Source: a virus
Strand: one strand, 5' to 3'
IMG/VR virus record: IMGVR_UViG_3300035498_001035
Location: 1-13,189 of that record
Length of the DNA stretch: 13,189 nt
The number at the start of each line of letters is the position of its first letter. The first letter of the stretch is position 1. Under the pieces are notes generated by a model that was not told the origin of the DNA, made no database searches, and saw nothing but the letters and a program-made list of their open reading frames with translations. Positions 11,321 through 12,370 of the stretch are shown one piece after another. Made by a program: the position numbers and the translations under genes.

Positions 11321-12370
11321 TTAATAATTTATAGCTTCACTTTTTAGCTCTGGTTCAAGAATTTTTATATATGTACCTTTCATACCCATATTTACAATAG
11401 TAGCAATATTATTTTCTTTCATCTTAGTAATAAGATTATTATAAACAGGGCGGGAAATGGAATTTTTTTCTACTAGTTTAGATATAGTGATGTTACCTTC
11501 CTCACGTATTTCTTTTACAATAGAATAGTAAGCCTTTATCTCAGCATTAGTTAGTTTTTTAAAGAACTCTTTTTTGGACGCGGCGGTTGGCGAAAAGTTC
11601 CCATCCTCTAAAAATGATGCCTTTAAAATCTCGGTCACTCCTGCGTTAAGGGCGGCTGCCGCTTCACTACATAATGGAGAATCTATATTTTTATTATTAT
11701 CTAATAATTTTCGTGTTTTATTTTGAATAATTTCACCCATAGCTATTTTATTATCATCATTATTAGAAATATTATTTAATAAGCCATATTTTATTTTCCA
11801 TAAAAATTCATGAGTTTCATCTGTTGGATAAATACATTCTATATATGGTTTACTATTAATATAATTTTCTAAAAAATAATATAGTCTATAAGTATTATAA
11901 AGGGTCTTATTATTAGCTAAATCTTGTCTTTTAAAATTGAGTAATTGACCTCCTATACTTTTGATAGTTTTATTTCTGTCGTAGTGAACGATTATTTCTC
12001 TATTTTTAATAAAATAATTATTAAATAAATCTAAATATTTAGAATTTATAATAGAATATTGAGTATATAATATTTCAGTATAATTAATATTTTGTTTCAT
12101 GAGCATTTCTCTCAATAAACGAATATCTTTTATTTCAATATGTTCATTATTTTCATAATGAAGTTCTTTTGATAACCATATTTTATTAAAACATATATCT
12201 TCAAATGAAGGCAGTATAATTATTTTACTATCAACATCACTATTTTTGCCTGCAAATCCATAGTTCTGACTTCCATAGCACCATATACCTAAAAATCTAT
12301 CTGGATTATAACCAAGACTTACGGCATAATTCCAATGTTCCTCTAATCTTTGTAGTATTTTATCTTTCAT
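11321..12370 (-). CDS. Pol-beta-superfamily nucleotidyltransferase with a C-terminal winged-helix (HTH) domain; substrate unknown.
   Basis: 349 aa. N-terminal GIWCYGSQNYGFAGKNSDVDSKII is the hG[GS]x9-13Dh[DE] nucleotidyltransferase signature, with a third acidic residue in HIEIKDI. The C-terminal ~60 aa (EIREEGNITISKLVEKNSISRPVYNNLITKMKENNIATIV) looks like a wHTH. ATG at 12370, RBS AAAGGAG. Confidence 0.7.
   Translation of the reverse strand: MKDKILQRLEEHWNYAVSLGYNPDRFLGIWCYGSQNYGFAGKNSDVDSKIIILPSFEDICFNKIWLSKELHYENNEHIEIKDIRLLREMLMKQNINYTEILYTQYSIINSKYLDLFNNYFIKNREIIVHYDRNKTIKSIGGQLLNFKRQDLANNKTLYNTYRLYYFLENYINSKPYIECIYPTDETHEFLWKIKYGLLNNISNNDDNKIAMGEIIQNKTRKLLDNNKNIDSPLCSEAAAALNAGVTEILKASFLEDGNFSPTAASKKEFFKKLTNAEIKAYYSIVKEIREEGNITISKLVEKNSISRPVYNNLITKMKENNIATIVNMGMKGTYIKILEPELKSEAINY

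What the first reader, a model, noticed from the sequence alone, without database searches (positions are those of the whole stretch)
11321..12370. Pol-beta-type nucleotidyltransferase fused to a C-terminal winged-helix; candidate tRNA 3'-end, CD-NTase-like or nucleotidylylating effector
The GS...x11...DVD...(E/D) nucleotidyltransferase core is followed by ~200 aa of helical region and a terminal wHTH-like segment, an uncommon fusion. In this neighbourhood (Thg1-like, Pnk, phosphoesterases, YqeY) it could be a CCA-adding/tRNA 3'-repair-type enzyme. Alternatively it could be a minimal-NTase-type toxin/anti-defence enzyme, a cGAS/DncV-like cyclase, or an antibiotic (ANT/Lnu-type) nucleotidyltransferase. 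A GC-rich Ala-rich patch (AAAALNAGVTEIL) is the only G+C spike in the gene.
Basis: inference. Interest (0 to 1): 0.5.

Follow-up and report, generated by a model that had tools for sequence, protein, structure and literature searches.

The report
Phage nucleotidyltransferase fused to CodY-type regulator
An uncultured ~140-kb gut phage encodes a probably active RNA-repair-type nucleotidyltransferase joined to a copy of the DNA-binding domain of the bacterial nutrient regulator CodY. I found no description of this combination, and it probably couples RNA repair to gene control.

Summary
The ORF is real: window 11321-12370, minus strand, 349 aa. It has two modules joined by a flexible linker.

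- **Residues 1-252** form a Pol-beta nucleotidyltransferase core plus a helical domain. G33-S34, D45, D47 and D82 are invariant in 56 homologues. The nearest family is RlaP (PF10127), the RNA-ligase-associated enzymes that add 1-2 nucleotides to RNA 3'-OH ends. CCA-adding, CD-NTase, MNT/AbiE and antibiotic ANT/Lnu readings find no support beyond the shared fold.

The fusion occurs only in uncultured phage contigs and MAG contigs that look like phage genomes. It sits behind a lambda-phosphatase-type metallophosphoesterase at the head of an early operon rich in RNA-repair genes.

Among relatives the winged helix is the constant part:
- 18 cluster representatives keep the catalytic residues.
- 64 have lost them.
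- About 34 are stand-alone winged helices.
- One phage carries an active enzyme and a dead-enzyme-plus-helix copy in tandem.

Best reading: a bifunctional RNA 3'-end repair enzyme and DNA-binding regulator. The DNA target is unknown, and host CodY boxes are not enriched in the window.

The parts
11321..12370 (-). Complete ORF, 349 aa plus stop: RlaP-like nucleotidyltransferase fused to a CodY-type winged helix
   Evidence: ORF list and translation. More than 115 full-length homologues. AF2 model with pLDDT 94.6.
12044..12370 (-). Residues 1-109: N-terminal helix plus Pol-beta NTase core. It carries the G33-S34 motif, the D45-x-D47 carboxylates (12230-12274) and D82 (12125-12127).
   Evidence: Invariant columns in alignments of 56 and 23 sequences. 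Weak hits to Pfam Polbeta and NTP_transf_2. phrog_388 'nucleotidyltransferase', E 7e-12.
11615..12043 (-). Residues 110-252: helical domain of the enzyme. It holds the invariant K155, N159 and R162 and the terminal helix 234-252 (11615-11671), which is the G+C spike.
11576..11614 (-). Residues 253-265: flexible linker, the junction of the fusion
   Evidence: pLDDT falls to about 68, and below 50 at 257-259. Mean pairwise identity is 22%, against 56-60% in the flanking modules.
11324..11575 (-). Residues 266-349: CodY-type winged helix-turn-helix. The recognition helix S306-K318 lies at 11417-11455 and the wing M328-Y334 at 11369-11389.
12527..13189 (-). Upstream operon partner: a lambda-phosphatase / PrpA / PrpE / ApaH-type metallophosphoesterase (GDxxDRG, GNHE). 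Its 5' end is cut off by the window edge; the full gene is 240 aa in L014.
   Evidence: Pfam Metallophos on the extended frame. The full gene and its promoter are visible in L014. NCBIfam PrpA/B E 1.5e-10, PrpE, ApaH, and a weak hit to the bacterial Pnkp phosphatase. The same gene lies directly upstream in HTH-bearing loci.
12384..12500 (-). 38-aa hydrophobic small ORF (MTLILLVILTYLLLLAIASGLGILFTFILIKIFHVDKF) between the phosphoesterase and the target gene
   Evidence: Read from the sequence. In related phages the two genes abut or overlap instead.
11266..11294 (-). Sigma-A-type promoter directly after the target gene, TTGATTTTTAATTAAAAATATATTATAAT, with a palindromic A/T spacer. It is a candidate operator only.
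   Evidence: Promoter scan, 10 of 12 hexamer matches. Class consensus search: 1 match against 0 expected. Homologous loci have a promoter at the same position.

Best explanation
The gene encodes a bifunctional early protein of an uncultured ~140-kb phage of gut Bacillota.

**Module 1 (residues 1-252)** is a divergent RlaP-type Pol-beta nucleotidyltransferase with all catalytic residues intact. [quoted passage not shown] I infer the following pathway:
1. The lambda-phosphatase-type metallophosphoesterase encoded just upstream exposes a 3'-OH.
2. Module 1 restores nucleotides trimmed from tRNA or RNA cut by host ribotoxins.
3. The phage's Pnk-like kinase, Thg1-like enzyme and (in related phages) RNA ligases finish the repair.

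**Module 2 (residues 266-349)** is a winged helix derived from the DNA-binding domain of CodY. It most likely binds A/T-rich DNA as a dimer and regulates transcription. The likeliest target is the early/RNA-repair operon at whose head the gene sits.

**Shown here:** the ORF, the two folds, the catalytic and DNA-backbone-contact residues, the synteny, and the separability of the two modules.

**Inferred:** the RNA 3'-end substrate, DNA binding, and the identity of the operator.
For: **Enzyme**
- The catalytic G33-S34, D45, D47 and D82, plus K92, Q93, K155 and R162, are invariant over 56 sequences at 40-100% identity.
- RlaP is the only extended Pfam match. Relatives P0108, P0110, P0118, P0150, P0145 and P0128 pass its 23-bit cut-off.
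- hhalign to T4 NrdC.11, an RlaP member, gives 88% probability and E 3e-6 over 95 columns.
- Phage nucleotidyltransferases in BFVD match the whole module (TM-score 0.64-0.80 normalised to the target).
- RlaP activity is described in PMC12776372, and its predicted role in phage RNA repair in PMC7824862.

**Context**
- The window holds a Thg1-like enzyme, a Pnkp-type kinase, two metallophosphoesterases, YqeY and an MVP/Band-7 protein.
- Related phages add RNA ligases and a TROVE-like DUF2828 protein.

**Winged helix**
- The backbone-contact and wing residues S306, R307, K316 and G329-x-K-G-T333 are 92-100% conserved in 264 family members. The CodY contacts come from PMC10415144.
- It is the most conserved region of the protein, at 60% mean pairwise identity.

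**Separable modules**
- NTase-only, eroded-NTase-plus-helix and fused forms all occupy the same syntenic slot.
- L098 carries an active NTase and a dead-NTase-plus-helix gene in tandem.
- Unfused winged-helix genes lie near stand-alone NTases in L048 and L135.
Against: - The window protein itself gives no RlaP hit at E <= 1, and the family consensus scores only 18 bits.
- No RlaP structure was available for a fold comparison.
- No RNA ligase lies inside this window.
- 64 of 82 cluster representatives that combine this winged helix with an NTase-like N-terminus have lost catalytic residues, yet some still sit next to the phosphoesterase. The enzyme activity is therefore not what holds the fusion or the gene pair together.
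- No operator was found. CodY boxes are at chance level: 6 found, 6.7 expected.
- The palindromic A/T promoter spacers also occur in phages whose NTase lacks the helix.
- The only base-specific side chain of CodY, S215, is Pro in 90% of the family.
Confidence: 0.55

Rival explanations
1. The protein is first of all a transcription factor. The NTase-fold domain takes the place of CodY's GAF domain as the dimerisation and ligand-sensing module, binding an NTP or a damaged RNA 3' end. Catalysis in this clade would be secondary or vestigial.
For: - The winged helix is the constant part. 64 representatives have a recognisable but catalytically dead NTase module that still keeps G33, N36, Y37, D82 and usually R162.
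- Four close relatives (70-79% identical in the helix) have deleted the catalytic core.
- About 34 representatives are stand-alone winged helices.
- The gene keeps its place at the head of an operon, next to a divergent promoter, even when the enzyme is dead.
- CodY's unusual binding mode needs a dimerising N-terminal module (PMC10415144).
Against: - In the window's own clade every catalytic and putative substrate-binding residue is invariant over 56 sequences down to 40% identity. That pattern is not expected of a mere scaffold.
- Many phages carry the same module as a stand-alone enzyme inside RNA-repair clusters.
Confidence: 0.25
2. The protein mimics or competes with host CodY. The captured CodY DNA-binding domain occupies host CodY boxes, or pairs with host CodY, and reprogrammes the host's nutrient-limitation regulon during infection.
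For: - The domain is homologous only to CodY.
- Relatives are found only in contigs of Bacillota, the phylum that has CodY.
- The wing G-M/V-K-G-T that enters the A/T minor groove, and the S/T-R start of the recognition helix, are conserved.
Against: - Identity to CodY is only 23-30%.
- S215 has become Pro, V218 has become Asn, R222 is variable, and Y181 (cross-dimer stacking) is lost.
- The GAF domain and the linker helix that build the CodY dimer are absent.
- The host is unknown, so its CodY boxes could not be examined.
Confidence: 0.08
3. It is a nucleotide-signal or defence-related NTase: a CD-NTase-like cyclase, a mimic of the Hailong HalB oligo-dA synthase, or an MNT/AbiE-type toxin-antitoxin component with a fused regulator.
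For: - The core matches MntA weakly (E 0.003).
- AbiE systems pair a winged-helix protein with an NTase (from general knowledge, not tested here).
Against: - No PADLOC model matches beyond E 0.013.
- No cGAS/DncV is among the top fold hits.
- MntA scores 17 bits against a cut-off of 60.
- No HEPN or effector partner is adjacent.
- The neighbours are RNA-repair genes in every locus examined.
Confidence: 0.05
4. It is an antibiotic-modifying nucleotidyltransferase (ANT/Lnu type) or a CCA-adding enzyme.
Against: - Identity is only 11-13% and rmsd is high.
- No NCBIfam or Pfam hit to ANT, Lnu or PolyA_pol/CCA models.
- No CCA-adding enzyme appears among the listed fold hits.
- The family occurs only in phage contigs.
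Confidence: 0.03

Closest known systems
RlaP, the RNA-ligase-associating Pol-beta family (PF10127): PfRlaP and PaRlaP of Pseudomonas, and T4 NrdC.11
   Same: - Pol-beta core with GS and three carboxylates, followed by a helical domain and a terminal helix.
- GSxxYGxxxxxSDxD signature shared with T4 NrdC.11.
- Encoded among RNA-repair genes in phages.
   Different: - The sequence is divergent. The window protein is below the Pfam cut-off, and only some relatives pass it.
- It carries a C-terminal DNA-binding domain, which the papers read here do not mention for RlaP.
- Its immediate partner is a lambda-phosphatase-type phosphoesterase, not RtcB/RtcA.
CodY, the GTP- and branched-chain-amino-acid-sensing global repressor of Bacillota (PDB 2b0l, 5loe, 8c7t/8c7u)
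   Same: - 23-30% identity, with a shared E-x-x-A helix, the S/T-R start of the recognition helix, K316 and the wing GMKGTYIK.
   Different: - No GAF sensor domain and no CodY linker helix; the N-terminus is an enzyme.
- S215 is Pro, V218 is Asn, R222 is variable, and the LSYS motif reads LTNA.
- CodY boxes are not enriched in the window.
- It is phage-encoded.
RtcR, the regulator of the bacterial rtcBA RNA-repair operon (comparison from general knowledge; a functional analogy only)
   Same: It would be a one-protein link between an RNA-damage-related ligand-binding domain and a DNA-binding output that controls RNA-repair genes.
   Different: The folds are unrelated: a CARF-like sensor, an AAA+ sigma-54 activator and an HTH in RtcR, against an NTase and a CodY-type winged helix here. 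No sensing was shown here.
Bacterial Pnkp/Hen1 and T4 Pnk/Rnl RNA-repair systems
   Same: The window and its relatives encode the same tool kit as separate genes: a Pnkp-type P-loop kinase, a lambda-phosphatase-type phosphoesterase and an RNA ligase.
   Different: There are extra components (RlaP-like NTase, Thg1-like enzyme, YqeY, MVP/Band-7, TROVE-like protein), and one component has a fused regulator domain.
Kanamycin/aminoglycoside nucleotidyltransferases (ANT(4'), ANT(3'')(9))
   Same: Two-domain architecture of an NTase core plus a helical bundle. These are the best solved-structure matches to the enzyme module.
   Different: Identity is only 11-13%, there is no family-model hit, and nothing in the context points to antibiotics.

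Membership tests
RlaP (PF10127) | Pol-beta NTase core with a GS motif and three catalytic carboxylates | tested here: met
   G33-S34, D45, D47 and D82 are present and invariant in 56 homologues.
RlaP (PF10127) | Profile match at or above the Pfam gathering score (23 bits) | tested here: inconclusive
   The window protein gives no hit at E <= 1, and the family consensus scores 18.1 bits. Relatives P0108 (26.2), P0110 (26.6), P0118 (26.9), P0150 (26.7), P0145 (23.3) and P0128 (23.2) pass. hhalign of the family profile against T4 NrdC.11 gives 88% probability.
RlaP (PF10127) | NTase domain, then a helical domain, then a final helix that returns to the NTase domain (PfRlaP crystal structure, PMC12776372) | tested here: inconclusive
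   The AF2 model has the same order of elements, and helix 234-252 is the conserved C-terminus of stand-alone relatives. The packing could not be inspected. No RlaP chain was matched in the PDB libraries.
RlaP (PF10127) | Encoded next to RNA ligases and other RNA-repair genes | tested here: met
   The window holds a Pnkp-type kinase, two phosphoesterases, a Thg1-like enzyme and YqeY. Related loci add RNA ligases PF09414 and a TROVE-like DUF2828 protein. No ligase lies inside this window.
RlaP (PF10127) | Adds one or two NMP to RNA 3'-OH ends | not testable with these tools
   This needs biochemistry. The activity is known for PfRlaP and PaRlaP only.
CodY (full-length regulator; NCBIfam NF003170, TIGR02787) | N-terminal GAF domain that binds branched-chain amino acids and GTP, plus a linker helix | tested here: not met
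   Only residues 270-345 match, at 36 bits against a cut-off of 255. The N-terminus is an NTase.
CodY DNA-binding domain (PF08222 HTH_CodY) | CodY-type winged-helix fold and sequence profile | tested here: met
   [not shown]
CodY DNA-binding domain (PF08222 HTH_CodY) | DNA-contact residues of CodY: T213, S215, V216, V218, R222, wing L-G-M, T240 (PMC10415144) | tested here: inconclusive
   Kept: S306 (Thr in CodY), R307, V309, K316, G329, K331, G332, T333. Changed: S215 to P308 (90% of the family), V218 to N311, R222 to a variable residue.
CodY regulon-type operator | Enrichment of AATTTTCWGAAAATT-like boxes | tested here: not met
   6 matches with up to 3 mismatches, against 6.7 expected.
Antibiotic nucleotidyltransferases (ANT, Lnu) | Match to curated resistance-family models | tested here: not met
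   [not shown]
CCA-adding enzymes | Class I or II CCA-adding / PolyA_pol profile and body/tail domains | tested here: not met
   No such Pfam or NCBIfam hit in the protein or in 56 relatives. None among the listed fold matches.
CD-NTase (cGAS/DncV-like) | CD-NTase profile or fold, with an effector partner | tested here: not met
   PADLOC gives only PDC-S09 at E 0.013. No cGAS/DncV among the listed fold hits. No effector gene is adjacent.
MNT / AbiEii toxin-antitoxin NTases | Family profile match and a HEPN or AbiEi partner | tested here: not met
   MntA scores 17.3 bits against a cut-off of 60. No HEPN neighbour.

The most novel reading that the evidence does not exclude
The protein is a one-component sensor and regulator of phage RNA repair. 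The NTase-fold domain, active in this clade and catalytically dead in most relatives, binds damaged RNA 3' ends or an NTP. That binding switches the CodY-derived winged helix on an A/T-palindromic operator in the phage's early promoters. The phage would thereby tune its repair operon, or the host CodY regulon, to ribotoxin attack. This would be a phage counterpart of RtcR, built from a repair enzyme and a captured host regulator domain.
Probability: 0.15. Interest if true: 0.8.

Novelty: new variant of a known kind. Interest (0 to 1): 0.55.

Why it matters
**RNA repair.** RlaP enzymes have only just been characterised, and their role in phage counter-defence is still a prediction. A clade with a built-in DNA-binding domain suggests that phage RNA repair is regulated, and it gives a handle for finding how.

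**CodY domain.** As far as the collections and papers searched here show, the CodY DNA-binding domain has not been reported outside CodY itself. Here it defines a phage-specific family of about 300 clusters at 50% identity. The N-terminal enzyme has been inactivated or lost in most of these clusters. That makes the family a natural series for studying how an enzyme becomes a regulatory domain.

**If the helix reads host CodY-type sites.** It would be a new way for phages to take over host nutrient signalling.

Tried and rejected
- **CodY boxes in the window.** No enrichment: 6 found, 6.7 expected.
- **Promoter spacers as the operator.** These phages share a promoter class, TTGATTTTTAATAAAAATTTTGTTATAAT. 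The A/T palindrome ATTTTTAWTAAAAAT is mildly enriched in the window: 7 found, 2.8 expected, and 4 of 200 shuffles reach 7. But the same T-run/A-run spacers occur in phages whose NTase lacks the winged helix (L009, L011, L022, L028). No specific link could be shown, so this stays a lead only.
- **Near-identical DNA in cultured phages.** None.
- **tblastn of the winged helix against phage records.** It finds only fragmentary Listeria and Enterococcus records at 31-34% identity. These probably carry host codY.
- **Sequence search of solved structures with the enzyme profile.** Nothing significant.
- **AlphaFold-database fold search.** The library was unavailable.
- **The 2016 paper that named RlaP.** Not held in the library.
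- **tRNA genes and Rfam families in the window.** None.
- **Look-up of the exact window protein in the contig index.** Not on record. The phage was identified instead through IMG/VR loci L013 and L014, at 99% identity.

Full report
**1.

- Window 11321-12370 on the minus strand is an ATG-initiated ORF of 349 aa.
- It carries G33-S34, ten residues, D45-V-D47, and a third carboxylate at D82.
- The database holds more than 115 full-length homologues at 40-100% identity.
- In a 56-sequence alignment G28, G33, S34, N36, Y37, S44, D45, D47, D82, K92, Q93, K155 and R162 are invariant.
- An AlphaFold2 model built on that alignment has mean pLDDT 94.6. It shows an NTase core (1-109), a helical domain (110-252), a poorly predicted linker (253-265) and a compact winged helix (266-349).
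- The G+C spike is real. It encodes helix 234-252, which is also the C-terminal helix of stand-alone relatives. It therefore belongs to the enzyme, and the fusion junction lies at about residues 255-265.

**2. Where the window comes from**

- Every substantial ORF in the window lies on the minus strand.
- The window includes a holin, an amidase-SH3 endolysin and RNase H.
- No cultured phage has similar DNA.
- IMG/VR loci L013 and L014 encode a 99% identical protein. L014 lies on a 139,648-bp viral contig.
- In genome collections the fusion is found only on MAG contigs labelled 'uncultured Bacilli bacterium' (53 kb and 139.6 kb) and 'Clostridium sp.'.
- The source is thus an uncultured ~140-kb phage of A/T-rich gut Bacillota.

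**3. The enzyme module**

*Family models*
- Generic Pol-beta models match only the core, and weakly.
- PHROG 388 'nucleotidyltransferase' matches at E 7e-12.
- RlaP (PF10127) is the only Pfam model whose matches reach past the core into the helical domain. The window protein itself gives no hit, and the family consensus scores 18 bits.
- Six relatives pass the 23-bit cut-off. P0108, P0110 and P0118 are 42-47% identical to the window protein over the aligned stretch. P0150, P0145 and P0128 are stand-alone enzymes, and the family profile finds them at E 1e-60 to 1e-72.

*Profile and fold comparisons*
- A profile of 137 enzyme modules aligns to T4 NrdC.11, a recognised RlaP member, with 88% probability and E 3e-6 over 95 columns.
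- Viral predicted structures annotated 'nucleotidyltransferase', 220-290 aa long, match the whole module with TM-scores of 0.64-0.80 normalised to the target.
- No ANT, Lnu, CCA-adding, CD-NTase or defence model matches.

*What RlaP enzymes do*
- They add one or two nucleotides to RNA 3'-OH ends, prefer damaged tRNA mimics and do not act on DNA (PMC12776372).
- In phages they are predicted to restore nucleotides lost before ligation (PMC7824862).

**4. The winged helix is a CodY DNA-binding domain**

*Matches*
- Pfam HTH_CodY matches residues 290-341 (E 7e-6, 1.1 bits below the cut-off).
- The NCBIfam CodY models match only residues 270-345 (E 3.5e-9).
- phmmer against all PDB sequences returns CodY chains and nothing else significant (E 6.5e-7).

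*Residue comparison*
I compared 264 family members with the CodY-DNA contacts described in PMC10415144.
- Kept at 92-100%: the residues that hold the DNA backbone and the wing that enters the A/T minor groove. These are S306 (Thr in CodY), R307, V309, K316 and G329-x-K331-G332-T333.
- Changed: the only base-specific side chain, S215, is Pro in 90% of members. V218 is Asn. R222 is variable. The LSYS motif reads LTNA.

I therefore expect A/T-rich DNA binding with a changed core specificity. The winged helix is the most conserved part of the protein: 60% mean pairwise identity, against 56% for the core, 38% for the helical domain and 22% for the linker.

**5. Context**

*This phage*
- The gene directly upstream runs off the window edge. 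It is complete (240 aa) in L014.
- It is a metallophosphoesterase of the lambda-phosphatase/PrpA/PrpE/ApaH type, with a weak match to the phosphatase of bacterial Pnkp.
- In L014 the pair is transcribed from a strong sigma-A-type promoter next to a divergent late-looking gene.

*Related phages*
- The same phosphoesterase-then-NTase-helix order, often with overlapping stop and start codons, recurs in related ~140-kb phages.

*Downstream genes*
- In the window: YqeY, a Thg1-like enzyme, an MVP/Band-7 protein, a Pnkp-type kinase and a second phosphoesterase.
- In relatives, additionally: RNA ligases, a TROVE-like DUF2828 protein and PARG.

**6. The two modules are separable, and the helix is the constant part**

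Three architectures occupy the same slot:
- the fusion;
- the enzyme alone (P0113 and P0148);
- an eroded enzyme with a helix that is 70-79% identical to the window's, but with the GS...DxD core deleted (P0116, P0117, P0119, P0120).

Further evidence:
- In L098 a phosphoesterase is followed by an active 254-aa enzyme and then by a 235-aa dead-enzyme-plus-helix gene.
- In L048 and L135 an unfused winged-helix gene lies within a few kb of a stand-alone enzyme.

An exhaustive search with the 94-residue C-terminus found 302 cluster representatives at E <= 0.001.
- 18 keep all catalytic residues.
- 64 have a recognisable module with catalytic residues replaced, typically GGKNY...D.K.
- About 34 are stand-alone domains of 150 aa or less.
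- About 31 have other N-termini.

Two dead-enzyme versions still sit next to a phosphoesterase at an operon start. These classes rest on motif and HMM criteria of my own and are approximate.

**7. Mechanism**

The reading that fits best is a bifunctional protein. It combines an RlaP-type RNA 3'-end nucleotidyltransferase, acting after the neighbouring phosphoesterase has produced a 3'-OH, with a DNA-binding regulator.

The pattern in the wider family raises a serious rival. In that reading the NTase fold serves mainly as the dimerising or ligand-binding partner of the helix, taking the place of CodY's GAF domain, and catalysis is dispensable. In the window's clade the strict conservation of the active site argues that the enzyme still works.

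I could not identify the operator:
- CodY boxes are at chance level.
- The phage's promoters have palindromic A/T spacers that resemble a CodY box with symmetric changes, for example ATTTTTAATTAAAAAT at 11266-11294.
- The same spacers occur in phages without the helix in the stretch examined.

**8. Novelty**

- Both domains are known kinds; the combination is not.
- No paper in the searched library describes a phage CodY-type domain or an RlaP-winged-helix fusion.
- No cultured phage record carries the domain.
- None of the viral predicted structures that matched the model covers both modules; the significant matches are enzyme-only proteins.

I rate it a new variant of a known kind, of moderate interest. 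The interest would rise if the helix proves to couple RNA damage, or host CodY signalling, to phage transcription.

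Noticed in passing
window 6471-8992 (-), frameshift at about 8263-8265: The vault/MVP-like gene is split into two ORFs (8237-8992 and 6471-8045) by a one-base deletion in an A-run. The window reads GGGGAAAGAG, whereas the 99%-identical contigs L013 and L014 read GGGGAAAAGAG and have one continuous ORF. L098 likewise has a single 816-aa gene. This is probably an assembly or sequencing error, or a recent mutation.
   Followed up: yes
window 2-1267 (-): A gene that runs off the left end encodes the ATPase subunit of a type IIA topoisomerase (GyrB / T4 gp39-like). 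The motifs YPGMYIG, DNGRGIP and GGxHGLG are visible. The ORF list omits it because it is cut by the window edge.
   Followed up: partly
window (-) 11294-11266, 6437-6409, 2869-2841, 2283-2255; many copies in L001, L006, L009, L011, L014-L020: A highly conserved promoter class, TTGAtTTTTwAwAAAAAttTtgtTATAAT followed by ATTTATA, with a T-run/A-run palindromic spacer. One copy always lies directly after the NTase-helix gene. It is shared by a broad group of these phages, whether or not their NTase carries the helix.
   Followed up: partly
L098 3328-5756: A phosphoesterase, then an active stand-alone NTase (254 aa), then a catalytically eroded NTase with a CodY-type helix (235 aa), in tandem. This looks like duplication followed by division of labour.
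   Followed up: partly
window 12384-12500 (-): A 38-aa strongly hydrophobic ORF lies between the phosphoesterase and the target gene in this phage lineage (also in L013 and L014). In relatives the two genes abut or overlap.
   Followed up: no
window 5970-6371 (-): A 133-aa Cys-rich protein with two CxxC pairs and a faint resemblance to ribosomal protein L33 (NCBIfam E 0.004). It sits between the MVP-like gene and the Pnkp-type kinase. Its function is unknown.
   Followed up: no
window 6471-8992 and 9072-9902 (-); L001, L004, L009: These phages combine an MVP/vault-shoulder protein, Band-7/SPFH, a TROVE-like DUF2828 protein, a Thg1-like enzyme, YqeY, PARG, RNA ligases and a Pnkp-type kinase. 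This is an unusually rich RNA-repair and ribonucleoprotein gene set for a ~140-kb phage.
   Followed up: partly
window 1305-2135 (-); L006 9603-10346; L001 3309-4046: A recurrent protein of about 250-276 aa with repeated CxC...CGC zinc-ribbon-like units and a DUF2726-like C-terminus turns up at different places in related phages. It may be a mobile nuclease-like gene.
   Followed up: no
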